A stretch of 64,000 nt of DNA from an uncultured delta proteobacterium (GTDB lineage: Bacteria > Desulfobacterota > RBG-13-43-22). Positions 9,872 to 62,055 of the stretch are shown here, one piece after another. The stretch is taken from assembly GCA_963843145.1 (NCBI GenBank), contig CAWJJC010000027.1:192001-256000 (forward strand). Reading direction: 5' to 3'. A program made the translations under genes and the position numbers. Numbering within the stretch: the first letter of the stretch is position 1; each line of letters begins with the position of its first letter. Below the pieces are notes generated by a model. It searched no databases, was not told the DNA's origin, and was given only the letters and a program-made list of their open reading frames with translations.

Positions 9872-11234
9872 TCAGAATCCAATTTTGCTGCTGATCGTTA
9901 CCACCCGTTCCCGAATTTCTTCCCAATCCAGCGTCAACAGCTTTCGCTGCCGCATCACCATTTGCCCGGCAATAAAAACCGTGTCTACATCCGCCCCGGA
10001 GGCCGCATAGACTAAGTGGGAAAAGGGATGGTAGAGGGGGGTCAAATGGGGTTGGTTTAGATTGATCAAAATCAAATCCGCCTGTTTGCCCACTTCCAAA
10101 GAACCGATTTCTTTTTCCAGCCCCAGGACCTTGGCCGCCTCGAGGGTGGCCATTTCCAGGACGGAATGGGCCTCCAACACGGTAGGGTCGAGGCGATGGA
10201 CCTTGTGCAGGCGAGCGGCGGTGCCCATTTCCCGGAAGAGATCCAGGTCATTATTGCCGGCACAGCCGTCCGTGCCCAACCCCACGACTATCCCTCGGGC
10301 CAGCAGTTCCACAACCGGGGTGACCCCCGCCCCCAGCTTCATATTGCTTTCCGGGCAATGGCTAACACGTGTCCCCGCTTCGGCCAGGAGTGCCATTTCC
10401 TCCAGATCCGGATAATTCACATGGACCCCGATAGTGGAATCATCCAGACAACCCAACCTATGCAAATAACGAACCGGGGTCAGACCGGTTTGACCCTGGA
10501 CCAGGGCCACCTCCTCCCGGGTTTCCGCCAGGTGAATAAATAAAGGAATCGCCTTTTCCAGGGCCAGGGCCTTGGCCTTTTCCAGGGTCTTCGCGGAGCA
10601 GGTGTAAGGAGAATGGGGGAACAACCCCAGTCGGATCCCGAGGAGATTGTCCGGACCATTTTTCGATGAAATCCCGGGCCGAACGGATATTGTCGGCCGG
10701 GTCCGGGACACCCGGGGCCGGAAAATCAATCACCCCCGGGGCCAGGACAGCCCGCATGCCGGACTGATAAATCGCTCGGGCGGCGCCATCCAGGCAAAAA
10801 TAGCCGTCGGCCAGGGTGGTGGTCCCGGAGCGGATCATTTCAGCGCAGGCCAGGAGGCTTCCCCAGTAAACCGTCTCCGGGTTGATAAACCGGGCCTCCG
10901 CGGGGAAGATGTGCTTTTCCAGCCAGTCCTTCAGGGGCAGGTCGTCGGCCAGACCCCGGAAAAGGGTCATGGCCGAATGGGTGTGGGTATTGATCAGCCC
11001 CGGCAGGACCAGGAACCCCCGGCCGTCAATCACTTCCCGGGCCGTCCAGAGCTCCGGACAACGGGCGCCGAGATACGTAATCCGGCTGTCTTTGATGCCT
11101 ATGGAGCCGGTCGGAATCGGGTCGGGATGAGCCGGGGACAGGGTTAGGATCAGTCCGTCCTTGATCAAAAAATCAAAATCCTCCTCGACAGGCCCTTGTT
11201 GCGAGGGTAGTTTCGAATTTTGATATTTGGTCAT
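9872..11234 (-). CDS. Amidohydrolase, MTA/SAH deaminase (MtaD)-like, paralog 2; +1 frameshift near 10638
   Basis: PGLINTHTH, FPHSPYTC, IHLAET, HCPESNMKL, GLGTDG motifs spread over ORFs 10458..11234 and 9872..10729. Removing one G from CGGGATC restores SPRIRLGLFPH. Confidence 0.85.
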
Positions 11235-11270
11235 TTGAATTTGTTTCGGATTTCGAGTTTCGGATTTGAA
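11210..11270. repeat. Heptamer-periodic intergenic repeat (TTTCGGA family), copy 1
   Basis: GTTTCGAATTTTGATATTTGGTCATTTGAATTTGTTTCGGATTTCGAGTTTCGGATTTG matches 27256-27321 and the reverse complement of 36981-37046. Confidence 0.8.
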
Positions 11271-12721: not shown

Positions 12722-13576
12722 TTAGCTTTTAATTTTCCTCCCGCCCTTCAGCTCCTGCGGGGTCAATTTGGAAACCACCCCTTCGACCAGGGCCATCAAT
12801 CGGGGTTCGGCTTTTCGCGCCGTGGCAATAATGGCCTTCAGCGAAGCGGGCTCCTGGCAGTCCGGTCGGTTGACGTTGGAAATGACCGATATTCCCAGAA
12901 TTCGCAGACGGCACTGCACCGCGGTAATAACTTCCAGGACGGTGGACATGCCCACGGCTTGGGCCCCCATCTGTCTGAGCATTCGCGTTTCCGCCGGCGT
13001 CTCCAGGCTGGGTCCCTTGACCGCTACGTAGACCCCCCGGCGAAGCGGGATTTGTTTCTGCAGAGCCACTTTTTCGGCCAGGTCCGTCAAGCGGCGGTCA
13101 TAAACGGCGGAGAGGTCGGGAAAACGGTCTCCCCAATACTCCTGGTGGGAACCTACCAGAGGATTCTCTCCGGTAAGATTGATGTGATCCATGATCAGCA
13201 TCAGATCCCCGGACTCGAACCCGGGGTCCAGACCCCCGGCGGCATTGGAAACGATCAGGACCTTCACGCCTAATCCGGCCAGTACCCGAATAGGGAAACC
13301 GATCTCCTGGGGCGCATAGCCTTCATAGAGATGGAACCGGCCCTGAAGGGCGACTACCGGTTTACCGGCCAGGGTCCCCCAAACCAACTGGCCCTGATGG
13401 GACTCCACGGTGGAATGGGGGAAATAGGGTATTTGCTCATAGGGGATGGACCGGGCCTTTTTGATCCCGCCAGCCGACTCACCCAGACCGGTGCCCAGGA
13501 TAAGTCCGATGGGGGCCACGCCACCCATTTTCTTCTTCAAGTAGGAGACTGTTTTTAGAAATCGTTCTTTGTTCAT
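12722..13576 (-). CDS. punA: Purine-nucleoside phosphorylase (trimeric PNP I family)
   Basis: LILGTGLG, QGRFHLYEGY, SNAAGG, DHINL, GPSLETPAE, AVGMST. Likely start MNKERF at 13576. Confidence 0.9.
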   Translation of the reverse strand: MNKERFLKTVSYLKKKMGGVAPIGLILGTGLGESAGGIKKARSIPYEQIPYFPHSTVESHQGQLVWGTLAGKPVVALQGRFHLYEGYAPQEIGFPIRVLAGLGVKVLIVSNAAGGLDPGFESGDLMLIMDHINLTGENPLVGSHQEYWGDRFPDLSAVYDRRLTDLAEKVALQKQIPLRRGVYVAVKGPSLETPAETRMLRQMGAQAVGMSTVLEVITAVQCRLRILGISVISNVNRPDCQEPASLKAIIATARKAEPRLMALVEGVVSKLTPQELKGGRKIKS

Positions 13577-13862
13577 AGTTTCCTTTCCTTTGAGGCTTAG
13601 CTGAGGCCTGGATTCTGGATCGCGCTTCGCTTGTCCGGAATAACGAGCTGACGCGACTCGTTTAAAGCCTATTTTCATGCTTAGCGGGTGCTCTCTGGAG
13701 CCGGTGGGTTTAATACGAAAATCCTCCCTCTTGACGGCACCAGTTGCAGAATAATGATTTATGCTTTAATATACTAAAAAAAATTGTTGAACAAGAAATT
13801 TTATCCCAACGAACCTCCCTTTCCCCTGGCAAGGGAGGGTTGAATTTTAGGGGGATTTTTCC

Positions 13863-25301: not shown

Positions 25302-25377
25302 TCACCGCCAAGACGCCAAGGACGCAAAGTAACCAAGAATAAATTTTTTCTTTGCGCTCTTTGCGCCTTTGCGGTGA
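25302..25377. repeat. Empty inverted-repeat pair (CACCGCAAAGACGC family)
   Basis: TCACCGCCAAGACGCCAAGGACGCAAAG - 20 bp - CTTTGCGCTCTTTGCGCCTTTGCGGTGA, between livH and livM. Confidence 0.85.
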
Positions 25378-25390
25378 TATCAAAAGCCCT

Positions 25391-26399
25391 ATGTATATCC
25401 GCAAAGAACGCATCGATCGGGGTATCAAAGTCAGGACAGGGGATATTTTTGCCCTGTCCTCGGGCTGGGATCTGCTCTACCTGCTGGTCCCCCGGGTGTT
25501 GCCGCTCCTGATCGTCATCATCCTGAGCTTCACGCTCAGTCTATACTGGCAGAAGGTCCTCATTTCCACGGCCGTTTTTGCCCTGCTGGCCATGAGTTGG
25601 GACTTCCTGGCTTCAGCCGGCATGGTCTCCCTGGGCCAGGCCTATTTTTTCGGCCTGGGGGCCTACCTGACCGGCATTCTGTCGCATTATTTTCATTGGC
25701 CCATTTGGCTGACCATTCCGCTCGGCGCGGTTTTGGGAGGCCTGGTGGCGACCATCACCCTGCTCCCGGTATTGAGGCTGCGGGGGATTTATTTTTCCAT
25801 GATCACCCTGGTCCTGCCTTTGATGCTGGTCCGGGTCATCGAGGCCACCAAGATCTTCGGCGGCACGGAAGGAATCAGTGGATTGGCCCCCTACCCCAAC
25901 CGCTGGGTGGAGCTCTATCTCAGCTTGACCGCCGTCTGGGTCTGTCTCTTCGCCCTCCGGCGGCTCCTGAATTCCGATTACGGCCTGACCCTGAAGGCCA
26001 TCTGCGACAACGATCGCTCGGTGATGAGTTCCGGGATCAATATTTACTGGTACAAGGCCCAGGCCCTCTTCGTCGCCGGAGCGGTGGGCGCTTTCGCCGG
26101 GGCCTTCATGACCCACTCCTACATGTTCGTGGGCATGCCGGTCTTCGCCCTGGACTATTCGATCCTGCCCATCGCCGCGGCCGTGGTGGGGGGCACGGGC
26201 ACCATGGCCGGACCGCTGCTGGGGGCCTTTATCCTGGTCCCGCTCTCCGAAGCCCTGCGCGGCCTGGGCGGGTCTGCGCATCGTCATTTATGCCCTCTCC
26301 TTGACCGTGTTTACCGTAGCCCTGCCGGAGGGGATCTTCCATTACATTCAGCGCAAGTATCAACAGTTCGAACGCCAGGTAAAAGTGGAATCCGAATGA
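25391..26399 (+). CDS. livM: Branched-chain amino acid ABC permease (LivM-like); +1 frameshift near 26270
   Basis: GMVSLGQAYFFGLGAY, LRLRGIYF. The correct tail GLRIVIYALS...PEGIFHYIQRKY...* lies in another frame and ends at TGA 26397-26399, overlapping the livG ATG. Confidence 0.85.
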
Positions 26400-27151
26400 G
26401 CGCCCCGATCCTGAACGTTTCCAACCTTTCCAAACGCTTCGGCGGAGTCCAGGCCGTGGAGTCCATCTCCTTTAAAGTGCAGCCCGGTGAATTGATGGGC
26501 ATCATCGGACCTAACGGATCAGGGAAGACCACCTTGGTCAACCTGATCACCGGCTTTATCCGTCCGGACAGCGGCTCGATCTATTATCGGGATCGGGAAA
26601 TTACCGGCTGGATGCCTTATCGGATCAGCCGGCAGGGATTGGCCCGAACCTTTCAGATGGTCCGCCCTTTTTACCACCTGCCGGCCTTCAAGAATATGGT
26701 CATTCCCCTTTCCTCGCCCAGGGTAAAAAAGTTGTCCGGAGGGCGCTACGGCGACCGGGACGCCGTGGCCAAGGACCTGCTGGAAGAAGTGGGTTTTGAA
26801 CGGGATTCCTCGGTGATCAACAAGGTGGCCGGCGCCCTGCCCCACGGCTATCTCAAGCGTCTGGAACTGGCCAAATGTCTGGCCCTGCGGCCCGAACTGA
26901 TCATCCTGGATGAGCTCTTTTCCGGTCTGAGTCTGGCCGAGGTGGCCGGGATCCTGCCGATCATCGAAAAAATGAAATCCGAGGGCAAGACCATCCTGAT
27001 GATCGAACACCGCTTGCGGGAACTCTTCCGTATCGCCGATCGGGTGATCGTCCTCAATTTCGGGCAAAAAATCGCCGACGGCCGGCCGGACCAGGTCATG
27101 CAGGGCGAGGAAGTTAAAAAGGCCTACCTGGGGACTGAAGGAGAAGGATAA
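26396..27151 (+). CDS. livG: ABC ATP-binding protein (LivG-like)
   Basis: GPNGSGKTT, ARTFQ, LDE, IEH. Confidence 0.9.
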   Translation: MSAPILNVSNLSKRFGGVQAVESISFKVQPGELMGIIGPNGSGKTTLVNLITGFIRPDSGSIYYRDREITGWMPYRISRQGLARTFQMVRPFYHLPAFKNMVIPLSSPRVKKLSGGRYGDRDAVAKDLLEEVGFERDSSVINKVAGALPHGYLKRLELAKCLALRPELIILDELFSGLSLAEVAGILPIIEKMKSEGKTILMIEHRLRELFRIADRVIVLNFGQKIADGRPDQVMQGEEVKKAYLGTEGEG

Positions 27152-27255
27152 ATAAAATCAAATTCGAAATTTAAAACCGGTGGCCTTTGAACTCCAGCGG
27201 TCCATCAAGTGGGGGAATCCCCTTCCCAACTCCTCCCGATCCGGAGGGGGGAGAA

Positions 27256-27321
27256 GTTTCGGTTATTTGAATTTTGAACATTGCTGTTTGTTTCGGATTT
27301 CGTGCTTCGGATTTCGAATTT
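27256..27321. repeat. Heptamer-periodic repeat, copy 2, next to a GC-rich REP-like segment (27201-27255)
   Basis: GTTTCGGTTATTTGAATTTTGAACATTGCTGTTTGTTTCGGATTTCGTGCTTCGGATTTCGAATTT, close to the reverse complement of 36981-37046. Confidence 0.8.
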
Positions 27322-27345: not shown

Positions 27346-28095
27346 GTGTTGCTGGACGTCAAACATTTGATGATTTTTTATGAGAACGCTCTGGCCCTGA
27401 ACGACTTCAGCCTCCAGGTGGATGCCGGGGAGATTGTGGCCGTCATCGGCTCCAACAGCGCCGGGAAAACCACCCTGATGAATGCCATCTCCGGCTTGAT
27501 CCTGGACATTCAGGTCAAGGAAAAGCGTAAGGGCGGAGAACGCATTACCCTACTGGGGGAAGTCTGGTTCAATCGGGAGGACCTCAGCCGGGTGAGCCCG
27601 GACAACCGGGTTAAAAAGGGGATCGTCCTCTGCCGGGAACGGCATCCCATTTTCCCTGAAAGCGATGTGCTGGAAAACCTCCACATCGCGGGTTATCTGC
27701 GCAGCCGGAAAGAAATCAAGGAAACGGTGGACCTGGTTTTCACCCTTTTTTCCAATCTGGCCGGTCACAAAAACCAGAAGGCCGGTTTTTTGAGCGGCGG
27801 GGAACAGCAGATGCTGACCATCGGCATGGCCCTGGTGGTCCGTCCCAGCCTGCTCCTCCTGGACGAGCCCCTGCTGGGTCTGAGTCCGGCCATGCAAACC
27901 AAATTGCTCTCGGCCATCAAAACCATCCGGCAGGAGACCCGGGTGACGATTCTGATCAGCGAACAGTTCGCCCGGCCGATCCTGCCCATGATCGACCGGG
28001 GCTACGTGATCGAAAACGGCATGCTGACCCTATCCGGCACCAGCCGGGAACTCATGGAGAACCCGGAGGTGGTCTCGGCCTATTTCGGGGTATAA
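27346..28095 (+). CDS. livF: ABC ATP-binding protein (LivF-like)
   Basis: GSNSAGKTT, LSGGEQQML, LLDEP; likely GTG start at 27346. Confidence 0.9.
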   Translation: MLLDVKHLMIFYENALALNDFSLQVDAGEIVAVIGSNSAGKTTLMNAISGLILDIQVKEKRKGGERITLLGEVWFNREDLSRVSPDNRVKKGIVLCRERHPIFPESDVLENLHIAGYLRSRKEIKETVDLVFTLFSNLAGHKNQKAGFLSGGEQQMLTIGMALVVRPSLLLLDEPLLGLSPAMQTKLLSAIKTIRQETRVTILISEQFARPILPMIDRGYVIENGMLTLSGTSRELMENPEVVSAYFGV

Positions 28096-28099
28096 GATT

Positions 28100-28668
28100 T
28101 ACCGCAAAGACGCAAAGGACGCGAAGAGGCATTTTCTCCGTCCGGAAAAGACCCGGACGGAGAAAATGCCTGGTCAAGAGAACAGTTCTAAAGCAACTAT
28201 GGATATCAATCCATTAAGCAATGTAATTATCGGGGCGGCCATTGAGGTCCATAAAAACCTGGGTCCCGGTTTACTGGAATCCGCTTATGAGGAGAGTATG
28301 TGTTGGGAATTGGCTCACCAAAAGGTGCCCTTTGAAAGGCAAAAACTCTTGCCCTTAAGTTATAAGGGGCACGCCTTAGACTGCGGATACCGTTTGGATA
28401 TTTTGGTCGACAACCAAATCGTACTGGAACTAAAATCGGTGGAACGGCTTGAACCCATTCACAAAGCCCAATTGTTGACCTACCTGAAGCTCTCGGGTTT
28501 TCCGATGGGGTTACTCATGAATTTCAATACTCCTTTAATGCGCCAAGGCATCGTGCGACTCGTAAACAATTTCAAGGAATAGCCCCGCCGGTGGGGTGAA
28601 GTTGTTTTATTGGCGGCGAGGGCCGCCAATAAAAAGAATTTTTTGCGCCCTTCGCGTCTTTGCGGTGA
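28100..28668 (+). mobile_element. Putative small cassette: IR - hairpin - GxxExxY gene - hairpin - IR
   Basis: Left ACCGCAAAGACGCAAAGGACGCGAAG (28101-28126) vs reverse complement of the right end (28641-28668) TCACCGCAAAGACGCGAAGGGCGCAAAA; perfect internal hairpins at 28127-28171 and 28605-28634. Confidence 0.6.
28199..28582 (+). CDS. GxxExxY protein (PD-(D/E)XK nuclease-like)
   Basis: IIGAAIEVHKNLGPGLLESAY, YRLDILV, LELKSVE, HKAQLLTYLK, GLLMNF. Confidence 0.93.
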   Translation: MDINPLSNVIIGAAIEVHKNLGPGLLESAYEESMCWELAHQKVPFERQKLLPLSYKGHALDCGYRLDILVDNQIVLELKSVERLEPIHKAQLLTYLKLSGFPMGLLMNFNTPLMRQGIVRLVNNFKE

Positions 28669-28678
28669 GTACGCTTTT

Positions 28679-30352
28679 ATGCATTCAAACAAAATCCATA
28701 TCTGCAAGGCCTTCCAGGAACAGGCGGAGAAGACCCCCCGGAAAGCGGCCCTCGTCTACCTCGGCACTTCCTATTCCTACGCCGGACTTTTGAAGTCCGT
28801 GCGGGCTTTGGCCGCCAGCCTCCAGGCCTTGGGCCTGAAAGAAGGGGACAAGGTCGTTCTCTACCTGCCCAATTCCGTCCAGTGGGTCCTGGCCTGGCTG
28901 GCCGTTCAATGGATCGGCGGGGTGGCCGTGCCCATTACCCCTATCTACACGGCCCGCGACTTGAACTACATCGCCGGCGACACCGGCGCCGTGGCCGTAT
29001 TCTGCTCCGATCGAAATTTCGGCTATGTGCAGCAGGTCCTGGACTCCACTCCGCTCAAAACCATCGTCGTCACTAACCTGGCCGACTTACTCCCCTGGTG
29101 GAAGCGGTTTCTGGGTTGGGCCTTCGACATTATCCCCAGAGGAAGCGTGGCCAAAAGACCAGAGGTGCATCCCTTTCGTAGTCTCCTTTCCGGTCCGGCC
29201 GCATCGATCCCGGAGATCCGGGGAGGCGGTGAGGGGATAGCCGAAATCCTGTACACCGGCGGCACCACCAAACACCCCAAGGGAGTGCCCATCAGCCACC
29301 GGCTCTACCTGGGCTGCGCCCAAGAGCAGATCGGCGTCAGCGAACCCCTCTTTCCTTTGACCGAAAACGTGATCGCCGGTGGGGCCCCGCTGTTTCACGT
29401 CCTCGGCCAGACCTGCAGTCTGGGAACGATTTTCTTCGGGGGCACCCTGCTGGTCTTTCCCAAGGTGCAGTTGGACGCCCTGATGCACGCCATCCAGCGT
29501 TTCCGGGCCAAGACGCTGATCGGCGTGCCGGCCCTTTACCGGATGATCCTGGAACACGATCGACTGGATCTCTATGACCTCGGTTCCCTTCAATATTGCT
29601 TCAACGGCGGGGATGTACTTCCTCTGGAAATCGAAAAAAGGTGGCGGGATAAGTTCCAAAAGCCTATCTTCCAAGGGTATGGCGCTACCGAAACCTGCGG
29701 CGGAGTGACCATGGTGCCGACCGATCGTCCCACTCCGCCCCGGAGCATGGGCCGGGTCCTGGCCAGTAAATCCGTTCGGATTATCGACGCCACCACCCGG
29801 GAAATCGTACCCCGGGGAGAACCCGGGGAGTTAATCGTCTCCTCCCAACCCATGGTCGAAGCCTATTGGAATAAGCCGGAAGAGACGGCCGAAGCCTTTC
29901 TCACCCTAGAAGGGAAAAGGTGGTACCGGACCAGCGATATTGTCTCCGAGGACGAACAGGGGTACTTCTACTTTGTCGATCGAACCGTGGATACCATCAA
30001 ACACAAAGGCTATCGGGTTTCGGCTTCCGAGATCGAGGCCGTGCTTCAGGAACATCCGGCGGTCATCGAATCCTGCGTGGTGGGCATCCCCGACGAGAAA
30101 GTGGGCCAGCGGATCAAGGCCTTTGTGGTCTTAAAGAAAGATATCAAGGGTGTCACCGGCTACGACCTGATCAAGTGGGCCCGGGAACGACTGGTCTCCT
30201 ACAAGCTTCCCCAGTACATCGAGTTCCGCGATATGCTGCCCAAGTCCAAGGTGGGCAAGCTCCTGCGCCGGGAAATCCGCGGGGAGGAAGGCCGACGACA
30301 GGAAAAGGACGAAAAGAGCGACGCCGTGATGAAGGACAGCGGGATGGGATAG
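28679..30352 (+). CDS. AMP-binding acyl-CoA ligase (long-chain fatty acid-CoA ligase-like)
   Basis: YTGGTTKHPKG, QGYGATE, YRTSD, DR...K..G, LPKSKVGK. Confidence 0.92.
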   Translation: MHSNKIHICKAFQEQAEKTPRKAALVYLGTSYSYAGLLKSVRALAASLQALGLKEGDKVVLYLPNSVQWVLAWLAVQWIGGVAVPITPIYTARDLNYIAGDTGAVAVFCSDRNFGYVQQVLDSTPLKTIVVTNLADLLPWWKRFLGWAFDIIPRGSVAKRPEVHPFRSLLSGPAASIPEIRGGGEGIAEILYTGGTTKHPKGVPISHRLYLGCAQEQIGVSEPLFPLTENVIAGGAPLFHVLGQTCSLGTIFFGGTLLVFPKVQLDALMHAIQRFRAKTLIGVPALYRMILEHDRLDLYDLGSLQYCFNGGDVLPLEIEKRWRDKFQKPIFQGYGATETCGGVTMVPTDRPTPPRSMGRVLASKSVRIIDATTREIVPRGEPGELIVSSQPMVEAYWNKPEETAEAFLTLEGKRWYRTSDIVSEDEQGYFYFVDRTVDTIKHKGYRVSASEIEAVLQEHPAVIESCVVGIPDEKVGQRIKAFVVLKKDIKGVTGYDLIKWARERLVSYKLPQYIEFRDMLPKSKVGKLLRREIRGEEGRRQEKDEKSDAVMKDSGMG

Positions 30353-30444: not shown

Positions 30445-30903
30445 TTACAATTTTCGGTCGATCTTCTCGGGGTGATCGTTGACCCATTTCAGGAGGGCAT
30501 TAACTAGGCTTTCCACATCCTCGAGTTGCTGGCTGCAGATTTCGTAGAGTTCCTGATTCGAGATTTCCTGATAGAAATGGACCATTCGGTTTCTGTATCC
30601 CGCCATTTTTTCCAGCGCCCGCCCATCCTCTGCGCTTAGTATTCCCTGCTCGGCGAGTCGTTGGGCGATTTCCTTGTACTCCGTAACCGCCAGGCCGAAT
30701 CCCTTCGCCAGCATATGCCGCCCCAGATCCAGCAAGGCCTCCAAGGCTCGACGCAAATAAGATTCAGCCGAGGCCGAATTCCGGCGGTCAGAGATAAAAG
30801 ATTCGAACGACTCCAGCGGCAGGGATTTCAGCCTTTCCAGCATATCCCGGATCCAGGCGCTGCGTTCGGCAATCACTTGAGCCCTTAACAAATTTGGGGT
30901 CAC
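30445..30903 (-). CDS. HepT-like HEPN RNase toxin (DUF86)
   Basis: RNRMVHFY (RxxxxH) motif; GTG start overlaps the MNT stop codon. Confidence 0.88.
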   Translation of the reverse strand: MTPNLLRAQVIAERSAWIRDMLERLKSLPLESFESFISDRRNSASAESYLRRALEALLDLGRHMLAKGFGLAVTEYKEIAQRLAEQGILSAEDGRALEKMAGYRNRMVHFYQEISNQELYEICSQQLEDVESLVNALLKWVNDHPEKIDRKL

Positions 30904-31325
30904 CGCCCGCCTTCTTTCAGGATCGCCCGGATTCGCTCCCGCTGGAAATAACTCAGATCCCCTGCTCTTCTTAAAAAATAAAGTTCGTCTTCGGCTTGTT
31001 GATCGAAATCCCGGCAATAAAGGATTTCGCCGCGAATGATATCGAGGGCCAGGAAAGCATCCGCCTCCGGCAAGACCACCAGGTCAATTCTCCCGGCCCC
31101 GAACAACGCTTCCAGGGCCAGGGTCAATTCTACCCGGTCCTCCGCAGAGAGTCTCGTACCTTTTTCGGGTTGGATTCCCATATCCACATCCGAAGGGAGA
31201 GCGGAAACCGGTGCCGCCCTTCCTTCGAGCCGGCCGAAAATCTCCCCCGCTCGACTGCCAAAAACATAAATAGACGCCAGTCGGTATTGGTCAGCCAGAT
31301 GATGAAGTCGTTGTGTTGCCGTCAT
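30900..31325 (-). CDS. Minimal nucleotidyltransferase (MntA-like antitoxin)
   Basis: YVFGSRA...SDVDMG...IDLVVL...IIRGEILY; upstream of HepT. Confidence 0.85.
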   Translation of the reverse strand: MTATQRLHHLADQYRLASIYVFGSRAGEIFGRLEGRAAPVSALPSDVDMGIQPEKGTRLSAEDRVELTLALEALFGAGRIDLVVLPEADAFLALDIIRGEILYCRDFDQQAEDELYFLRRAGDLSYFQRERIRAILKEGGR

Positions 31326-31552
31326 GCCCGTCGCCCTCACAAGGAGGTAAATTCATTCTAATCCAATTTTCGGTTAGTATTTCAAATCTGTTAAATTTGT
31401 CAAGAAGTTATAGCCGAGTTCCGGTTTTGAGATTTCCGATTCGCAAAAATTAATCTGGTCAAATCTTCGAAAAGGCAGGGCCAGCCTGATAGGCATCAAA
31501 GGCCACTGAGTTTGGGCCTGCTTTAAATAAAATTAGTCGCTAGATAGAATTC

Positions 31553-31580
31553 TTGACTTTAGACGGAAATTATCTATAAT
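31553..31580 (+). promoter_or_regulatory. Sigma70 promoter of the AbrB-VapC pair
   Basis: TTGACT-16 bp-TATAAT. Confidence 0.6.
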
Positions 31581-31609
31581 GAAAGAAAATCGTTCAATTG
31601 GAGGAAAAT

Positions 31610-31864
31610 ATGCCGATTATCGCTATCTCCGCCAAAGGTCAGGTGACGATTCCCAAAGAGGTAAGGAAGGCCATGAATCTTAAATCGGCCGACCGGGTGA
31701 TTATCGTCATGGAAGGAGACCAGGCGGTCATAAAACCGATCCGAGGTACCCTGATGGATATTGGAGGGTCCATCGCCATTCCTGAAGCGGAAAGGCCCAT
31801 TAATTTTAAGCAGGTCAGGGAATCCGTACGAAAAAAAATGGGCCAACGGGTGGCGAAGAAATGA
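31610..31864 (+). CDS. AbrB/MazE/SpoVT-family antitoxin
   Basis: ISAKGQVTIPKEVRKAM. Confidence 0.9.
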   Translation: MPIIAISAKGQVTIPKEVRKAMNLKSADRVIIVMEGDQAVIKPIRGTLMDIGGSIAIPEAERPINFKQVRESVRKKMGQRVAKK

Positions 31865-32280
31865 CCGCTCCCATCAAGAAGTTTTTCATCGACACCAACA
31901 TCATTCTTCGTTACTTGACCAAGGATGACCCGGTCCAATTTCCGCGTTGTCGTCAACTCTTTAAAAAGGCCCAGGACGGTGAGGTACTTCTAATAACCTC
32001 AACCCTGGTTATAGCAGAAATAATCTGGACCCTGTCCTCTTATTACCGGGTCCCCAAAGACCAGATCATCGAGAAACTATCCATAATTATTGGAAGCGAT
32101 GCCGTCCAAATCCTCGACAAAGATCTGATCGCCGAGGCCCTGGTGCTTTATGCCCGAAAAAACGTAGATTATATTGACGCCTATAATGCCGTTCTCCTGA
32201 AGCATCTCAACCTCAAGGAGATCTATTCCTACGACCGGGATTTTGATAAGATCGACGGAATTGATCGTCTGGAGCCTTGA
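31861..32280 (+). CDS. vapC: PIN-domain (VapC) toxin
   Basis: FIDTNIILR, AE, DYIDA, YSYDRDFD; ATGA overlap with the antitoxin. Confidence 0.9.
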   Translation: MTAPIKKFFIDTNIILRYLTKDDPVQFPRCRQLFKKAQDGEVLLITSTLVIAEIIWTLSSYYRVPKDQIIEKLSIIIGSDAVQILDKDLIAEALVLYARKNVDYIDAYNAVLLKHLNLKEIYSYDRDFDKIDGIDRLEP

Positions 32281-32395
32281 TACGAAACAACGAATAGGTG
32301 CACTATTTTCATGCTTCCGGGTGCCCGCCCCAGGCATCTGTGGTTAATACGGAATCAGGACCGATGTCAAAAATACTTGCTAAGCCCTTTACTTC

Positions 32396-32443
32396 TGCAT
32401 AGTAAACTATTCACTTGACATGCATAGTTGATGACCCTATCAT
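32396..32443 (+). promoter_or_regulatory. Sigma70 promoter plus probable autoregulatory operator of the Phd-VapC pair
   Basis: TTGACA(32415)-17 bp-TATCAT; palindrome ATAGTAAACTAT (32399-32410); TGCATAGT repeated at 32396 and 32421. Confidence 0.6.
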
Positions 32444-32476
32444 TTATCCAATTGACCCCCAAGGAAAGGAGGCCGC

Positions 32477-32749
32477 ATGGAGGAAGTAAGTGCTTTGGAC
32501 CTAAGAACTAAATTCGGCGCAATTTTGGATCTCCTCGAAGAAAAAGGCGAACCCATACTTATAAAAAAGCGGCATAAACTGCGGGCGGTTCTGGTAACCC
32601 CCGATCAGTTTGAGCGGCGGTTTGTGGATTGGCAGGCGGAGGAAAAGCAAAAAGAACTTTTGAACCACATCAAGAAGCTGCGAGAGCAGCGGGTCAGGGG
32701 GGAAAGCGGCCTGGAGGTTTTGAGAAAGCTGCGCGGATACGATCGATGA
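32477..32749 (+). CDS. Phd/YefM-family antitoxin
   Basis: VSALDLRTKFGAILD...EPILIKKRHKLRAVLV. Confidence 0.85.
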   Translation: MEEVSALDLRTKFGAILDLLEEKGEPILIKKRHKLRAVLVTPDQFERRFVDWQAEEKQKELLNHIKKLREQRVRGESGLEVLRKLRGYDR

Positions 32750-33186
32750 TCTGGGTGATTGATGCTTCCGTGGCCCTAAAATGGTTTATCGTGGAAGAGG
32801 CCCATCCCGCCGCGGAGAAGGTCCTGACCGCCCTGATCGCTCGACCCCAGTCCTTCGCCGTGCCCGAGCTATTTGCCTTTGAAGTATTTTCCGTTCTGCA
32901 TCGCCTTCACCCCCAACCCCGCCTGGCATTTGAAGAAGGCCTCTTGCCCTTGTTACAGGGGGGGCTGCTGCGGATGCCCATGACCAAAAACCTGGCCGCC
33001 CTGGCCCAGCGCTTTATCCATCTGGGGTTGACCGGCTACGATGCCTGTTATGCCGCCCTGGCCCGAGATTTGAGCGGCTTCTGGCTGACCTACGATCAAA
33101 AGGCCCATCAGGCCATCAAAAAAGAAAAGGTATCCTGGTCTTTGGAAAAGGGTCTCCCTCCGGACTGGCCTTCCGAGTTGGGATAG
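32746..33186 (+). CDS. vapC: PIN-domain (VapC) toxin
   Basis: VIDASVALKWF, E, LTGYDACYAALA, LTYD. Confidence 0.88.
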   Translation: MIWVIDASVALKWFIVEEAHPAAEKVLTALIARPQSFAVPELFAFEVFSVLHRLHPQPRLAFEEGLLPLLQGGLLRMPMTKNLAALAQRFIHLGLTGYDACYAALARDLSGFWLTYDQKAHQAIKKEKVSWSLEKGLPPDWPSELG

Positions 33187-36500: not shown

Positions 36501-37024
36501 GGGTTGACGCCCGGGAGTTCAACGACCTCTACCGGGAAGGCGTCCGGCTGGAGAACGAAGGGGATGACAAGGGGGCCCTGGACTGTTTTTCCCGAGCCGC
36601 CGACCTTTATGAAGGCGATTTCATTCCCGAGGAAACCTATGACTCCCAAGTGCTGCGACGCCGGGAAGATTTTAAGAACATCTATATCGATCTGCTCACC
36701 CGCCTGGCCCGCCGGCACACCCGAGCGGGGGCCTCCAAGAAGGCCGTATCCTGCCTGAAACAAGCCATCGAGACCGATCCCCTGCTGGAGGAGGCCTACC
36801 GGGACCTGATGACCCTCTATGCAGAAAAAAACCTCTACAACGAGGCCCTCCGCGTTTTCGAGGCCTGCCGCAAGGTCCTTAAGGAAGAGATGGATTCCTC
36901 TCCCGATCCGCTCACTATGGCCATCTACCGCGGGATCCGGGACCGAGCTGAACAAAGGTTTAGCCAGGGACAACGGAGTCAAATTCGAAACTCGAAATCC
37001 GAAATCCGAAACAAATTCAAATGA
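33588..37024 (+). CDS. MalT-like STAND ATPase-TPR regulator with C-terminal OmpR-type wHTH + BTAD; frameshift near 36188
   Basis: Walker A GQAAQGKST, FDG, DLAFS, TEGWIGG, FRFHQLF. The downstream frame gives IRTFGGLRL...ALWPE...LQRLRKGL...DPLLEEAYRDLM (SARP/BTAD). Confidence 0.85.
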
Positions 37025-37220
37025 CCCAAATTCAAATAACCGAAACGTCTCCCACTCCCTTGATGGGAGGGGGGCTTCGACGTGAGTCCTTCGGCAGTGA
37101 GCCCTTCGACTTTGAGCTCAGGGCCGAACTGCTCAGCCGAACGTTGGGGGGTGGGTGAATTCTCAAATCTTCGACTCATCCGTCTTCACCCCCTCCCTCC
37201 CCACTCAAGAGGGAGAGATC
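36981..37220. repeat. Composite REP cluster: heptamer repeat copy 3, CCCTCCC/GGGAGGG palindrome, CTTCGAC...GCTCAG units
   Basis: AAATTCGAAACTCGAAATCCGAAATCCGAAACAAATTCAAATG; CCCACTCCCTTGATGGGAGGGG; CCCTTCGACTTTGAGCTCAGGG. Confidence 0.75.
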
Positions 37221-37246
37221 CATTCAACAATGCCTTGGTTAAAAAG

Positions 37247-37403
37247 TGACGACCTCGCAAAAAGTTCTTAGCGCAGTCATTGCGAGGAGCAAAGCGACGA
37301 AGCAATCCCCGCGAATCAGCCAGTTACCATGGTGGGGATTGCTTCCCCCGAATCAAGTTCGGGGTCGCAATGACGGGTTTTTCGACTTTTTGCGAAACCT
37401 TCA
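37247..37403. mobile_element. MITE/REPIN-like element with terminal IRs and nested palindrome
   Basis: TIRs TGACGACCTCGCAAAAAGT / ACTTTTTGCGAAACCTTCA enclosing GTCATTGCGA...GAAGCAATCCCC...GGGGATTGCTTC...TCGCAATGAC. Confidence 0.7.
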
Positions 37404-38053: not shown

Positions 38054-38065
38054 GAAAAAGGCTTG

Positions 38066-38256
38066 CACCGCAGAGGCGCGGGGGACGCAGAGAATTTTTA
38101 TTTGCTTTGCGGGGAGATGCCCGCAAAGCAAAACGACTCAGCCGCTTCGCGGGCAAGAGGTTGTCGATCGAGCAACGATGAAACCCTTCATTTATGCCGT
38201 GCAGCAAACGTCCAGGCCAAGTAGTTTTCAACCGGCGGGAGATGCCGCCGGTTGAA
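38066..38256. repeat. CACCGCAGAG-family half repeat plus two perfect hairpins with GAGATG loops
   Basis: CACCGCAGAGGCGCGGGGGACGCAGAG; TTTGCTTTGCGGG-GAGATG-CCCGCAAAGCAAA (38101-38132); TTCAACCGGCGG-GAGATG-CCGCCGGTTGAA (38227-38256). Confidence 0.7.
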
Positions 38257-38317: not shown

Positions 38318-41300
38318 TTGTCAATGTCCAGGCCGACCATCCCTAACTCGAGGCACATAAAAAATTCGATTAATAATTTGGCGCCATTCCTGGTGGTCTT
38401 CTTGGCCCTGGCCTTGTTTCCAGTGGCCCCATCCTGGGCACAAACTAAAACCCTAACGATTATCCCCCCCAGCTATGGAATGGTTGGGAGCCTGCCATCA
38501 GGTATAAACTGCAATTCGGGTGGACCGTCTTGCATGGCAGGATACGAGCAGGGAACCATCGTTACCTTAAAGGCTATCCCCGTCGCAGGCTCGTATTTCA
38601 GCATCTGGTCCGGCGATGCCTGCAACGGAAATGTCTCGCTCACCTGCCTGGTCACCATGGATGCGGACAAAACGATCACGGCGTCTTTCACCCAAATTGT
38701 CCCGGTCATGCAGACCTGGCTGAAAACCTATGGTGGAGAGTATTCGGATTACGGTTACGCCATCCGGCAAACCTCGGATGGCGGATACATCGTGGCCGGT
38801 TCCACCGAGCCCTCTGATGAAGGTTATAGCAATGCCTGGGTAACAAAGCTTGACCAGGCCGGAAATGTGCTCTGGCAAAAAACCTACGGTGCCTCAAGCT
38901 CCGATTCCGTTAATTCCATACAGCAGACCTCGGACGGCGGATACATCGTGGCCGGTTCTACCGAGTCCTTTGGGGAAGGTTATATCGATGTTTGGGTGTT
39001 AAAACTTGACTCGAATGGAGAGGTACTCTGGCTAAAGACCTATGGCGCGGTGGGTGACGATTACGCCAATTCCGTACAGCAGACCTCGGACGGCGGGTAC
39101 ATTATTGTCGGTTATACCAGCTCCTTCGGGGTAGGTGATCTAGATGTCTGGGTGTTAAAGCTCAGGTCTGATGGATCTGTCGACTGGCAAAAGAGATATG
39201 ACGGTTCTGGGGGTGACGATTACGCTAATTCCGTACAGCAGACCTCGGACGGCGGGTACATTATCGCCGGTTATACCAGCCCCTTGGGGAACAGCCGCGG
39301 CGGCGACGCCTGGGTATTAAAGCTTCAGTCGAATGGAGATGTCCTCTGGCAAAAGACCTACGGTAACGAAAGGGAAGATACGGCCTTAGCCATCCAGCAG
39401 ACTGTGGATGGCGGATATATCGTTGCGGGTTATACCCACCCTAGTCCTAGCGATCCAAGACTCTATTATAGATACATTGCCTGGGTAATAAAGCTTGGCC
39501 AACAGGGAGATGTGCTCTGGCAAAATAACTACGAGGTCGATTTCGACACTTTCGCTAATTCTATCCAGCAGACTCCAGACGGTGGATTTATCGTGGCCGG
39601 GAAAACCGGAGGCGCCGAGGGAAGTTTTTTCAAAGCCCTGGTAATAAAACTTAACCCTGATGGAGATGTCGATTGGGGAAAAACCTACACCAACGATCGT
39701 AATGATGGCTGGAATGACGCTAACACCATCCAGCAGACCTCTGATGGCGGCTACGTCCTGGTTGGCTCAACCAATTCCTTCGGAGCAGGCGAATATTACG
39801 ATTATTATGATGCCTGGGTGTTAAAGCTTGACTCGACAGGAAATATATCCGGGGAGCTTCCGGTAAACTTTATTGCTGCAGAAAAATGTGATAGTCAGCT
39901 CCACAGATGTTAGTCCCGCCACTTCCAATGCCACCGTATCGGACACAAACGTTACCGGCCAGGATATCGATGTCACACCTCCCACGGGCTCGATTCTAAT
40001 CGACGGCGGGGCCGCTTCCACCAACTCAACCTCAGCCACCTTGACCCTGACCTGCAGTGATACCGGCAGCGGTTGCTCCAAGATGCAGTTTTCCAACGAC
40101 GATATCACCTATTCCATTCCTGAAGTTTATGCTGCCACCAAATCCTGGCCCCTGTCTTCCGGGTATGGTTTCAAAACGGTTTATGTGAAATTTCAGGACT
40201 TCTCAGGGAACTGGTCTTCCGTTTACAATGCCTCCATTATTTTAGTCTCAGCCTTGGACACTACATTTAATTCGGCTCTAGATGGTCCCGTTTACGCCAC
40301 CGCCATCCAGCCCGACGGCAGAATCTTGATCGGCGGCGGGTTCACCACCGTCGCTGGTTCATTGCACAACCACATTGCCCGGCTGAACGCAGACGGAAGT
40401 CTGGATACTTCTTTTAACAACTCCGGTGTGAATGATTATGTGTATTCCATCGCCCCACAGTCCGATGGAAAGATTTTGGCTGGTGGGTCTTTCACCAAGC
40501 CTAATGGAGACCCCTGGTACCTCGCCCGATTCAATCCGGATGGGACCTTGGACGATACTTTCAATCCCTCAGTGAACGGATTGATTCTATCCATTGTACT
40601 ACAACCGAATGGAAAAATCTTGATTGGCGGTACCACCTTCACCTCCGTAAATGGATCAAGCCGAAATTACCTGGCCCGCCTCAATGCCGACGGTAGTCTA
40701 GATGAAAGTTTTTCTCCCAATGTTAACGGGGCGGTTTATACGGTCTCCCTTCAAGCTAATGGAAAGATCCTTATCGGCGGGAAATTTACTCCCGCCATAA
40801 TCCGAATAAACACTACAGGAGAAATTGATGATACCTTTAATGCCAATATTTCCGACTTTACCCTCCCCACTAATAGTGGTGTCAATACCATCGCTGTGCA
40901 AGCTGACGGCAAAATATTGATCAGCGGGGATTTTACATCTGTGGATAGCGAGCCTCGGAATTATCTGGCCCGGCTATACTCAAACGGAAACATTGATTTA
41001 TCATTTGACCCCAACCTCTCTCCTGATCGAGCTGTCTCCATCGCCCTTCAGACCGATGGAAAGATCCTTATCGGCGGGTATTTCACGTCTGTCGGCGGAA
41101 CCACGCGCAATTATCTGGCCCTGCTCAATGGAGATGGATCATCGGATGCCACCTTTGACCCCAATATGGAAAGCTGGGTCTTTTCCATTTCCCTCCAGTC
41201 GGATGGGGGTATAATAATCGGAGGTCAATTCGGTAGTGGTGGTGCCAGCATCCCACGCTTCATTGGTCGGCTCAATAATCCCGATGCCGCCACCCAATCT

Positions 41301-44300
41301 CTCAACGCCTCCAATGACGGGACAACTGTCACCTGGCTGCGAGGCGGCGCCTCGCCGGAGGTGGAGTATGTGACTTTTGATCAATCAACTGACCACTCGG
41401 TCTGGACCTCACTGGGTCCCTCGAACCGCATCCCCGGGGGGTGGGAACTTACCGGACAGTCACTTCCATCAGGACAGGATTTGTATATTCGAGCACGTGG
41501 CGATGCCAAGGGCGGTTATTCGAATGCCTCGTCTTCGCTCATTGAGTCAATAACCCAGATAAATCTTTCGCCTCAAACTTTCACGATTTCCGCCTCAGCA
41601 GGGCCCAACGGGACAATTGCGCCATTAGGTTCTACAATAGTGCCCAATGGGGGAAGCCAGTCATATACGATTAATCCAAATTCCGGTTACCACGTGGCCG
41701 ATGTTTTGGTGGATGGAGTCTCGCAGGGGTCCAGGACTTCCTACGATTTTACCAACGTAACGTCCAACCATACCATTTCAGCCACGTACGATTTATTACC
41801 TCGGACAATCTCCATTGCTCCGTCGTCACCTTACGATTTCACCAATATTGCTGTGGGAGCTTCGGCGAACCAAATATTTACCATCTCGAATTCCGGAGGA
41901 ACCGACCTTTCAGTGACGGAGATAAACCTCGGTGGTTCGGCCGATTACATCTTGAATAGGGGCAACGGCAGCGGAGTAACCTGTGGGAGCACCTATCCAA
42001 GGACCCTGACCCCCGGCGGAAGCTGTACGGTGGCTGTAACCTTCCAGCCTTCCTCCCTTGGTTCAAAAACCGCGACCCTTTCGGTGGGTTCGAACGATCC
42101 TGTTACCCCTTCAGCCTCCGTGGCCATCAGCGGCTCCGGAGTCTATGGCACCTGCAACTGGACGAGTGTAACTGGTGGGAACTGGACCACTGCATCCAAT
42201 TGGTCCTGCGGACACGCACCGGGGACTAATGATGATGCGTTCATAACACTTGCCGGAACCTATACGGTAACCGTTACCGCCAACACAACCGTGAATAGTC
42301 TTACCCTTGGCGGGTCCAGCGGGACCCAGAGCCTCACAGTTTCAGGACCTCTCGGCCTGAACAATGCCAGCACCGTCGGGACCTACGGTGCACTCAATTT
42401 GAGTGGCGGCACCCTTGCGGGGAGTGGTACTCTCTCAGTCAGCGGAACGATGAACTGGACAGGGGGTGGCGGCACCATGAGCGGGCCCGGGACGACGAAC
42501 ATTACGGGTGCTTTCAACATCGATAACGGCGGTTACCCCGGGACCAGAAAGAATCTCACTTCACGGACGCTGAACATCGCCGGAACAGCGACCATTATCA
42601 ACAGTACTGGAATTAATCTCAGCAGTGCAACCATCAACAACCAAACGGGGGCGTCGTTTAGCTTCCCAAGCGACAGCTATTTGTATAACAGCGGCGGAAC
42701 CAACGCCTTTAACAATGCGGGGACGGTGACCAAGAGCGCCGGAAGCGGAACCACCACCATCGAGGTTCCGTTCACCAACACGGGCACGGTGAATGCCAAT
42801 AGCGGAACCTTCAGTCTTGCCCTGGCCGGTGGAGGCACGAGCATTGGATCTTTCAGCGTCGTCTCCGGGGCAACGCTTCAGTTGGCCGGCAGCGGGACCC
42901 ACACTCTGGGTACGGGATTGAGCCTTACGGGAGCCGGCACTGTGGATTTCTACTCCGGTACGGTGACCGTCAACTGCACCTACAATGTGACCGGGACCAC
43001 CAAGTTCAGCGGCGGGACCACGACCTTCAGCAGCGGGGCAGCGGTGAGCAGTGTCGGGAGCACACTCTGGGTTAATGGCGGCACGGCAAATTTCAACAAC
43101 ACGCAGGCCTGGACAGATCCAACCACTTTGACGGTCGACGGCAGTAGTACGGCCAACTTCAACAGGGGGCAGGCTCTCAACATTCCCACAGTGAATGCAT
43201 TTCAAGGCACATTGGGGGGAACTGACACCCTCAATGTAAGCAACACCCTCACCTGGGGGAGGCTTTATGCGGCTGGCGGGACCATGAGCGGGCCCGGGAC
43301 GACGAACATTACGGGTGCTTTCAACATCGATAACGGCGGTTACCCCGGGACCAGAAAGAATCTCACTTCACGAACGCTGAACATCGCCGGAACAGCGACC
43401 ATTATCAACAGTACTGGAATTAATCTCAGCAGTGCAATCATCAACAACCAAACGGGGGCGTTGTTTAGCTTCCCGAGCGACAGCAATTTGTATAACTACA
43501 GCGGAACCAACGCCTTTAACAATTCGGGGACGGTGACCAAGAGCGCCGGAAGCGGAACCACCACCATCGAGGTTCCGTTCAGCAACACGGGTACGGTGAA
43601 TGCCAATAGCGGAACCTTGAGTCTTGCCCTGGCCGGTGGAGGCACGAGCATTGGATCTTTCAGCGTCGTCTCCGGGGCAACGCTTCAGTTTGCCGATAGC
43701 GGGACCCACACTCTGGGTACGGGATTGAGCCTTACGGGAACCGGCACTGTGGATTTCTACTCCGGTACGGTGACCGTCAACTGCACCTACAATGTGACCG
43801 GGACCACCAAGGTGAGCGGCGGAACAACGACCTTCGGGAGCGGAGCCGCAGTGAGTGCTGTCGGGAGCACACTCTCGGTGAACGGCGGTACGGCGAATTT
43901 CAACAACGCGCAGGCCTGGACGGATCCAACCACTTTGACGGTCGACGGCAGTAGTACGGCCAACTTCAACAGGGGGCAGGCTCTCAACATTCCCACAGTG
44001 AATGTATTTCAAGGCACATTGGGGGGAACTGACACCCTCAATGTAAGCAACACCCTCACCTGGGGGAGGCTTTATGCGGCTGGCGGGACCATGAGCGGGC
44101 CCGGGACGACGAACATTACGGGTGCTTTCAACATCGATAACGGCGGTTACCCCGGGACCAGAAAGAATCTCACTTCACGGACGCTGAACATCGCCGGAAC
44201 GGCGACCATTATCAACAGTACTGACATGAATCTCAGCAATGCAACCATCAACATCCAAACGGGGGCGTTGTTTATATTCCAGAGCGACAATTCTTTGTTC

Positions 44301-61984: not shown

Positions 61985-62055
61985 TCACCGCAAAGAAGCT
62001 AAGGGCGCGAAGAAAGGCAAGAGACATTTCACCGCAGAGTCGCGGGGGGCAGAAA
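61985..62055 (+). repeat. Two solo CACCGCA(A/G)AG-family half repeats
   Basis: TCACCGCAAAGAAGCTAAGGGCGCGAAG (61985) and TCACCGCAGAGTCGCGGGGGGCAGA (62029). Confidence 0.7.

What the first reader, a model, noticed from the sequence alone, without database searches (positions are those of the whole stretch)
28100..28668. GxxExxY nuclease-like gene packaged in a symmetrical IR/hairpin cassette: candidate mobile element class
Seen: IR-left (28101-28126), perfect 19-bp stem (28127-28171), GxxExxY ORF, 13-bp stem (28605-28634), IR-right (28641-28668). The unit sits cleanly between livF and the acyl-CoA ligase. Same-family repeats recur at 25302-25377 (empty pair), 38066 (half plus hairpins), 61985 and 62029. 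Established: GxxExxY proteins are PD-(D/E)XK-fold proteins of unknown function. Inference: the protein recognises or mobilises these repeats, analogous to RAYT-REP systems, or the RNA folds the gene out as an intervening structure within the operon mRNA.
Basis: partly seen in the sequence, partly recalled or inferred. Interest (0 to 1): 0.75.

Follow-up and report, generated by a model that had tools for sequence, protein, structure and literature searches.

The report
Repeat-bracketed nuclease cassette in bacterial operons
A small, uncharacterised DNA-cutting gene sits between two matching repeat ends and turns up at many different gene junctions across bacteria, along with empty copies of those ends, which suggests an undescribed kind of mobile genetic element.

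Summary
The 570-bp unit (28099-28668) is a GxxExxY gene (TIGR04256/PF13366) with an intact PD-(D/E)XK site, modelled closest to Cas4/RecB-type nucleases, between inverted arms (TCACC plus CGCARAG heptamers). An inverted repeat brackets 52 of 84 GxxExxY genes but 4 of 265 control ORFs. Cassettes 92-97% identical sit at unrelated loci, with homology starting at the arm tip. In one operon, four different junctions carry the gene in different genomes. Facing arm pairs hold GxxExxY (38) or no gene (38). Arm type follows protein clade. The gene is under purifying selection. There is no target-site duplication, single arms are not palindromes, and arm mismatches show no G-U bias, so it fails the IS and RAYT/REP tests and the RNA-looping idea gains no support. 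Best reading: a REPIN/RAYT-like gene-plus-repeat element run by a different enzyme class. Binding, cutting and movement were not shown. This copy is old: three related operons all have it. Nine literature searches found no description.

The parts
28099..28126 (+). Left arm: T(T/C)ACC end followed by three CGCARAG-type heptamers at 9-nt spacing
   Evidence: homology among near-identical cassettes starts at this tip
28127..28171 (.). Left inner hairpin, perfect 19-bp stem, 7-nt loop; lineage-specific accessory part
28199..28582 (+). GxxExxY gene, 127 aa, PD-(D/E)XK nuclease fold with E27, D67, E77-x-K79 and Q91-xxx-Y95
28605..28634 (.). Right inner hairpin, perfect 13-bp stem, 4-nt loop; also passes a terminator-like scan on the + strand
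28641..28668 (-). Right arm, inverted copy ending GGTGA, 10 nt before the ligase ATG at 28679
25302..25377 (.). Empty arm doublet (28 nt between the 24-nt arm matches) at the livH/livM junction of the same operon; candidate non-autonomous form
   Evidence: L001 and L002 have a doublet at the same junction with 58- and 71-nt inner parts
38065..38134 (+). Orphan left arm plus hairpin, no gene and no right arm detected
61985..62052 (+). Two orphan arms in direct orientation (61985 and 62029)
27346..28095 (+). Host flank: LivF-like ABC ATPase; its stop is 3 nt before the left end
28679..30352 (+). Host flank: long-chain acyl-CoA ligase family gene

Best explanation
The unit is the gene-carrying form of a two-part repeat-nuclease element. 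The non-autonomous part is a doublet of inverted arms; the full part is the same doublet with a GxxExxY gene inside. SHOWN: the arms define sharp ends, the cassette occupies many unrelated operon junctions, empty doublets are common, arm type follows protein clade, and the catalytic residues are conserved under purifying selection. INFERRED: the GxxExxY protein recognises its own arm type in DNA (the heptamers repeat about once per helical turn) and cuts at or near the arm ends or at the hairpins between them. Host repair or recombination then copies doublets or whole cassettes to new intergenic sites, or drops the gene into an existing doublet, without a target-site duplication. The enzyme class is a hydrolytic nuclease, so I expect the joining step to be done by host enzymes. 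Placement a few bases after a stop codon and just before the next start lets the gene ride on the host operon transcript at low cost; targeting and survival bias cannot be separated here.
For: IR score >=14 around 52 of 84 genes with full 200-nt flanks (97 genes found; the 84 include the window's own) vs 4 of 265 control ORFs of the same loci; positives carry 14 phylum labels. Outer arms face inward in 39 of 45 genes with arms on both sides. 89 distinct neighbour-family pairs among 97 genes. Cassettes L004, L029, L030, L033 are 92-97% identical at unrelated loci, two in one genome bin, with homology starting at the left arm tip; five others share homology ending at GGTGA. Filled versus empty junctions: purC/purD, argS/SPOR gene, fabD/fabG in two Sphingomonas; four junctions of the argS-gatCA-mutL operon are filled in different genomes. 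Facing pairs under 1.5 kb apart: 38 hold GxxExxY, 38 do not, and those are at most 272 nt inside with one doubtful ORF call. Three arm types map on the protein tree with 2 changes, the minimum; L006, L020 and L039 each hold two genes with different arm types. D67, E77 and E27 in 92 of 92 proteins, K79 in 91; dN/dS 0.025-0.19 in 17 of 18 pairs, one saturated. Gene GC lower than flanks in 53 of 56.
Against: No binding, cleavage or movement was observed; all evidence is comparative. I know of no element moved by a lone PD-(D/E)XK protein (recalled), and the fold matches are general nucleases with Z 6-8 only. Filled/empty pairs are between species or genera, so gain cannot be told from loss. The window's copy is shared by all 3 related operons, so movement is slow there. 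The arm-type result rests on only two events, 7 non-majority genes on the tree, a quick tree with 46 of 89 forks unresolved, and type labels chosen after I had seen the flanks and the tree. The 80 genome loci are the closest of 235 confirmed hits and are rich in Desulfobacterota, so counts are not independent. Two copies in one bin could be two strains. No match in the phage collection and only 8 plasmid records, so no vehicle for transfer between hosts was seen.
Confidence: 0.5

Rival explanations
1. The arms are a MITE-like family moved in trans by another, unseen enzyme (an HUH, serine or tyrosine recombinase, or a host repair system). GxxExxY is cargo kept for another reason, for example as a defence or addiction nuclease.
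For: Orphan arms (105 of 247) and empty doublets are common without the gene. A PD-(D/E)XK nuclease has no known strand-transfer chemistry (established knowledge, recalled). At the radA/FAD-protein junction a related genome carries a different, unflanked gene, and a four-helix-bundle gene with its own repeats fills a junction that GxxExxY fills elsewhere, so these junctions accept varied cargo.
Against: No facing arm pair under 1.5 kb encloses another credible gene. Arm type follows the protein clade within single genomes. PADLOC gives only weak Cas4 matches, E 0.01 or worse.
Confidence: 0.25
2. The arms act as RNA: they pair in the operon transcript and loop out the gene, to be processed or to insulate host translation, with the protein possibly acting on that RNA.
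For: The predicted fold of 28090-28690 pairs the two arms, z -8.9. 52 of 81 genes are co-oriented with both neighbours. Left and right arms of one cassette are slightly more alike than shuffled pairs (18.75 vs 17.99 of 22, n=20, p 0.0016). tRNA splicing endonucleases appear low in the fold lists.
Against: Arm mismatches: 32 G-U on the sense strand, 28 A-C, 50 other, so no strand bias. Any inverted repeat folds well, so the z-score does not discriminate. 6 of 45 two-sided genes have direct, unpairable outer arms. Arm sequence, not just pairing, is kept across phyla. No Rfam family at gathering score. This reading does not explain new insertions.
Confidence: 0.1
3. The arms are operator or binding sites for the protein as a host-beneficial DNA-binding or repair factor (a domesticated system). 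Cassettes spread only rarely, through host recombination between arms.
For: Strong purifying selection and long residence at one site in some lineages (also L056/L059/L075 and L069/L074); near absence from plasmids and phages, as reported for RAYTs.
Against: Near-identical cassettes at unrelated loci and several copies per genome; broken or partial copies (3 of 97 split, others truncated), although some breaks may be sequencing errors.
Confidence: 0.15

Closest known systems
RAYT-REP/REPIN systems (REPtrons) and TIRtrons
   Same: One small nuclease gene flanked by its repeat family; gene-less doublets of inverted repeats with a variable spacer, in extragenic space; different repeat flavours beside different enzyme clades (passages of 10.1101/2021.07.10.451892, PMC3116915, PMC3733652).
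   Different: The enzyme is PD-(D/E)XK, not HUH/Y1. Single arms are heptamer arrays, not palindromes. The gene itself appears at many loci and in several copies per genome, whereas RAYTs are described as single-copy and staying in one extragenic space.
Insertion sequences with terminal inverted repeats and their MITEs
   Same: Sharp inverted ends around one ORF, plus internally deleted, gene-less derivatives.
   Different: No transposase family match, only 127 aa, no target-site duplication in 33 cassettes, and confinement to gene junctions.
Cas4 / RecB / lambda-exonuclease-type PD-(D/E)XK nucleases
   Same: Top Foldseek match is Cas4 SSO0001 (4ic1, E 4e-4), then lambda exonuclease; VIA-align Z 7.7, rmsd 4.3 over 101 residues to 4ic1, tied with BpuSI, Z 8.1. 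E, D, ExK and QxxxY are conserved (the QxxxY label for this group is recalled).
   Different: Minimal 127-aa domain, no sequence match in the PDB, no conserved cysteine set among the invariant columns, and tied to dispersed repeats.
Free-standing homing endonuclease genes (recalled, not read here)
   Same: Intergenic nuclease gene that could spread by break and repair without target duplication.
   Different: Homing enzymes return to one cognate site; this gene has 89 neighbour pairs among 97 copies and a dedicated repeat family.
Four-helix-bundle (TIGR02436) genes with their own flanking repeats
   Same: Small genes at operon junctions with inverted repeats: 5 of the 9 other IR-flanked small ORFs match TIGR02436 and a sixth is a similar fragment. 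They can fill the same junction as GxxExxY.
   Different: Unrelated protein and unrelated repeats; I found no paper on that association either.

Membership tests
GxxExxY / PDDEXK_3 protein family | Score above curated cut-off; GxxExxY motif | tested here: met
   147.9 bits vs 35; 142.2 vs 22; atlas hits all PF13366
PD-(D/E)XK nuclease superfamily | Restriction-like core fold with D...(D/E)xK catalytic residues | tested here: met
   Model pLDDT 96; best fold matches are PD-(D/E)XK enzymes; D67, E77, K79 conserved
PD-(D/E)XK nuclease superfamily | Measured nuclease activity | not testable with these tools
   Needs purified protein
RAYT-REP/REPIN | HUH/Y1 transposase | tested here: not met
   Family scans and fold assign the protein to PD-(D/E)XK
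RAYT-REP/REPIN | Each repeat unit has a palindromic core | tested here: not met
   247 arms fold no better than shuffles, -2.01 vs -1.97 kcal/mol; separate inner hairpins exist in about half of 33 cassettes
RAYT-REP/REPIN | Extragenic inverted doublets with variable spacer, repeat also flanking the enzyme gene | tested here: met
   38 gene-less facing pairs; 95 of 105 orphan arms outside ORF interiors, which cover 70% of bases
RAYT-REP/REPIN | Hundreds of copies per genome | tested here: inconclusive
   Only windows of up to 64 kb were held: 7 arms in the window, 24 matrix hits away from the genes in 20 kb of L020
RAYT-REP/REPIN | Enzyme gene single-copy and staying at one site | tested here: not met
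   Near-identical copies at unrelated loci, several per genome
Insertion sequence (DDE type) with MITEs | Terminal inverted repeats with sharp ends | tested here: met
Insertion sequence (DDE type) with MITEs | Target-site duplication | tested here: not met
   33 cassettes: shared direct match 3.64 nt vs 3.57 in shuffled pairings, p 0.35; no length or offset enriched. Old insertions could have lost them.
Insertion sequence (DDE type) with MITEs | DDE transposase inside the element | tested here: not met
   The only ORF is GxxExxY
Homing endonuclease gene | One cognate insertion site, cut in the empty allele | tested here: not met
   89 neighbour pairs among 97 genes; cutting of an empty doublet was not testable
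Known structured RNA family | Rfam match at gathering score | tested here: not met
   0 matches in the window; only two sub-threshold miRNA hairpin matches
Known anti-phage defence system | Match to a defence model | tested here: inconclusive
   PADLOC best E 0.01, Cas4; library dates from 2023
Integron gene cassette | attC site and a linked integron integrase | not tested
   No attC model or integrase scan was run

The most novel reading that the evidence does not exclude
GxxExxY is the enzyme of a widespread, undescribed class of mobile element: a 127-residue Cas4/RecB-like nuclease that recognises co-evolving heptamer arms and spreads both itself and gene-less doublets into operon junctions without target duplication. 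It may be one of several parallel small-gene-plus-dedicated-repeat systems (four-helix-bundle genes being a second) that compete for the same junctions and explain much intergenic repeat DNA in Desulfobacterota and other little-studied phyla.
Probability: 0.4. Interest if true: 0.88.

Novelty: categorically new. Interest (0 to 1): 0.74.

Why it matters
The family is very large (20,928 clusters at 50% identity reach E 0.001; the weaker ones may include other PD-(D/E)XK proteins) and is listed as of unknown function (PMC3424549). The finding gives it a candidate substrate, so its function becomes directly testable with a 30-bp oligo. If the protein moves its arms, it would be a mobile-element type outside the DDE, HUH and recombinase classes and among the smallest known, with natural protein-arm specificity variants. 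It would also supply a source for an abundant repeat family. Even under the cargo reading, the repeat family and its strict link to one gene family appear undescribed in the library searched.

Tried and rejected
Chance: rejected. Recent insertion at this site: rejected, 3 of 3 related operons carry it. Target-site duplication: none. Inner hairpins as core parts: rejected, absent from compact 432-480-bp cassettes. Inner hairpins as plain terminators: unlikely for the family, since the T run lies 5' and pairs with the A run, although the window's right hairpin passes the scan. Dedicated promoter: one consensus match against 0.8 expected. Read-through fusion to the ligase: the window's gene is in frame with it across one TAG, but L001 and L002 have further in-frame stops there (read by eye). 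First arm matrix was too narrow, missed the window's own cassette arms and was replaced. The same-type arm test had a faulty pattern (n=3) and was redone. The careful tree did not finish; the quick tree was used. Homodimer prediction gave no answer. PDB sequence searches found nothing relevant. No phage match. Literature: nine searches found no paper linking GxxExxY/PF13366 to flanking repeats; the library lacks most subscription papers, and curators' comments on the family models were not visible. The metagenome and viral contig collections stayed unchecked, and no strain-level comparison was possible with one genome per species.

Full report
OBSERVATION. The arms at 28101-28125 and 28642-28666 are 88% complementary, and the stems at 28127-28171 (19 bp) and 28605-28634 (13 bp) are perfect. 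The ORF from ATG 28199 is a GxxExxY protein (TIGR04256, 147.9 bits; PF13366) between a LivF-like ATPase and an acyl-CoA ligase. The window holds seven arms: the cassette pair, an empty pair at 25302-25377, and orphans at 38065, 61985 and 62029. Five lie within 4 mismatches of the left arm, against 0 on average in 100 simulated windows.

DATA SET. One genome scan with the protein alone confirmed 235 relatives, of which the best 80 loci were returned. Eight plasmid records were added. With the window these hold 97 GxxExxY genes. Selection was by protein similarity only, so it is blind to flanks, but it is rich in Desulfobacterota and the loci are not independent.

THE REPEAT LINK IS GENERAL. A motif-free test (best ungapped inverted match between the 200 nt on each side) scored 14 or more at 52 of 84 genes with full flanks, and at 4 of 265 other ORFs from the same loci. 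The majority arm reads TCACC-GCARAG-NN-CGCARAG-NN-CGC; the matrix found arms on both sides of 45 of 84 genes, on one side of 16 and on neither of 23, and outer arms faced inward in 39 of the 45 (6 hits at this threshold in 1.13 Mb of simulated sequence). Most of the misses carry variant arms: a wider heptamer rule typed 89 of 97 genes. Facing pairs under 1.5 kb apart enclosed GxxExxY in 38 cases and not in 38; the latter have at most 272 nt inside and one doubtful ORF call. Of 105 arms away from any GxxExxY gene, 95 lie outside ORF interiors, which make up 70% of the bases. Some empty doublets keep both inner hairpins and look like the cassette with the gene removed (L050).

THE CASSETTE CHANGES PLACE. 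The 97 genes have 89 distinct neighbour-family pairs (mechanical ORF calls inflate this somewhat). L004, L029, L030 and L033 are 92-97% identical in DNA, lie beside unrelated genes, and share homology from the left arm tip inward; L029 and L030 come from one genome bin. Five further copies share homology that stops at GGTGA. Filled and empty forms of one junction occur: purC/purD (447 vs 30 nt), argS/SPOR gene (filled in three genomes, 0 nt in a fourth), and fabD/fabG in two Sphingomonas species. In the argS-SPOR-gatC-gatA-small gene-mutL operon of five genomes, four different junctions carry GxxExxY in different subsets; others carry arms only, or a four-helix-bundle gene ('SPOR' is my recalled label, one search gave it no family). 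Gain and loss cannot be told apart at these distances. Against recent movement here: the window, L001 and L002 all have the gene at livF/ligase and an empty doublet at livH/livM. In 33 simple cassettes (432-700 bp) there was no target-site duplication. The left end lies within 19 nt of the upstream stop in 20 of 21 measurable cases, and the next ATG/GTG 3-46 nt after the right end. The gene is lower in G+C than its flanks in 53 of 56 loci.

THE PROTEIN. The model is confident (pLDDT 96). Foldseek ranks Cas4 SSO0001 first (E 4e-4), then lambda exonuclease; VIA-align gives Z 8.1 to BpuSI and 7.7 to Cas4, a general PD-(D/E)XK signal that does not pick a subfamily. E27, D67 and E77 are present in 92 of 92 locus proteins, and K79 and Q91 in 91. 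dN/dS is 0.025-0.19 in 17 of 18 hand-picked close pairs, with one saturated, and 0.07 for window vs L002. So an active nuclease is likely, but was not measured.

PROTEIN AND ARM TRAVEL TOGETHER. A starred clade joins a Desulfobulbaceae gene with four Verrucomicrobiota genes; four of the five were typed CATGAAG, and the fifth was untyped but shows the same motif. A second starred clade has CACAGAT/CACGAAA-type arms in its three typed members. L006, L020 and L039 each hold two genes within 10 kb with different arm types. The three types need 2 changes on the tree (84 typed rows). This is suggestive only: two events, a poorly resolved quick tree, and labels set after seeing the data.

DNA OR RNA. 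The region can fold with arms paired (z -8.9), as any inverted repeat would. Mismatches between partner arms are 32 G-U (sense), 28 A-C and 50 other, which gives no sign of selection on the transcript strand. Partner arms are slightly more alike than shuffled partners, which fits pairing, joint origin or gene conversion. Inner hairpins vary in stem sequence yet stay almost perfect (5 mismatches in 33 hairpins) and often carry a TGAGAGG loop on the left and its complement on the right, which points to DNA-level palindromes inside a longer composite inverted end. Single arms are not palindromic.

MECHANISM. I favour (0.5) a two-part element in which GxxExxY recognises and cuts its arms and host repair completes copying or insertion. 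Rivals: arms moved by another enzyme with GxxExxY as cargo (0.25), a domesticated host factor (0.15), an RNA-level device (0.1). That the arm-bounded cassette has changed position during evolution I hold at about 0.85.

COMPARISON AND NOVELTY. It is organised like RAYT-REPIN systems and TIRtrons (passages read in 10.1101/2021.07.10.451892, PMC3116915 and PMC3733652), but fails their defining tests: no HUH enzyme, no palindromic unit, and a gene that is not fixed in place. It fails DDE insertion sequences on enzyme and target duplication. PMC3424549 lists PF13366 as of unknown function with multiple transfers (one passage read). 10.1101/2021.01.26.428298 mentions the domain once beside a reverse transcriptase (one passage). 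Other papers were seen only as search listings; no supplements were read, and these could hold repeat catalogues that include the arms. Nine searches found no description of the association. I rate it categorically new under the best reading, and a new variant of a known kind if the cargo reading holds. Interest 0.74.

Noticed in passing
L005:6318-6692, L014:14925-15290, L020:12617-12985, L023:4755-5156 and 13247-13633: Four-helix-bundle genes (TIGR02436) flanked by their own inverted repeats; 5 of the 9 IR-flanked small ORFs among 431 tested, plus one similar fragment. They fill junctions that GxxExxY fills in other genomes. Possibly a parallel system.
   Followed up: partly
window 27232-27321, 11219-11269, 36979-37070: A second repeat family (TTTCGGATTTCG-type short tandem units). 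One copy sits at the livG/livF junction, where L002 has the same family and L001 has an empty GxxExxY-type doublet instead.
   Followed up: partly
window 36930-37400: Cluster of several further palindromic or repeat types in one intergenic stretch, including an inverted pair at 37255-37395. By recall such types often flank GIY-YIG or DUF559 genes; not tested.
   Followed up: no
window 25352-27151: livM and livG appear as one ORF, probably through a frameshift late in livM; L001 has two separate genes of 335 and 251 aa. May be a sequencing error.
   Followed up: partly
window 30445-33186: Three toxin-antitoxin-like pairs right after the operon: HepT/MntA-like, AbrB/MazE-type with PIN, Phd/YefM-type with PIN.
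   Followed up: no
window 38318-53076: Large repetitive surface-protein region with DUF5122 propeller and InlB B-repeat-like domains, broken into several ORFs.
   Followed up: no
window 60729-61625: Mutator-family (IS256-type) transposase gene about 360 nt from the two orphan arms at 61985 and 62029; no link shown.
   Followed up: no
proteins P0001-P0012: Tandem two-domain GxxExxY proteins of about 240-295 aa head the library search.
   Followed up: no
L084:2960-3423: In Sphingomonas parapaucimobilis the right arm lies inside the 3' end of the GxxExxY coding sequence.
   Followed up: partly
L076:3325-3480: The 5' end of the GxxExxY gene is replaced by sequence that by recall resembles the end of a GIY-YIG gene; not scanned.
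   Followed up: no
L090:645-1320: In Phocaeicola massiliensis the radA/FAD-protein junction holds an unrelated cysteine-rich ORF of about 215 aa where Bacteroides finegoldii has the GxxExxY cassette.
   Followed up: partly
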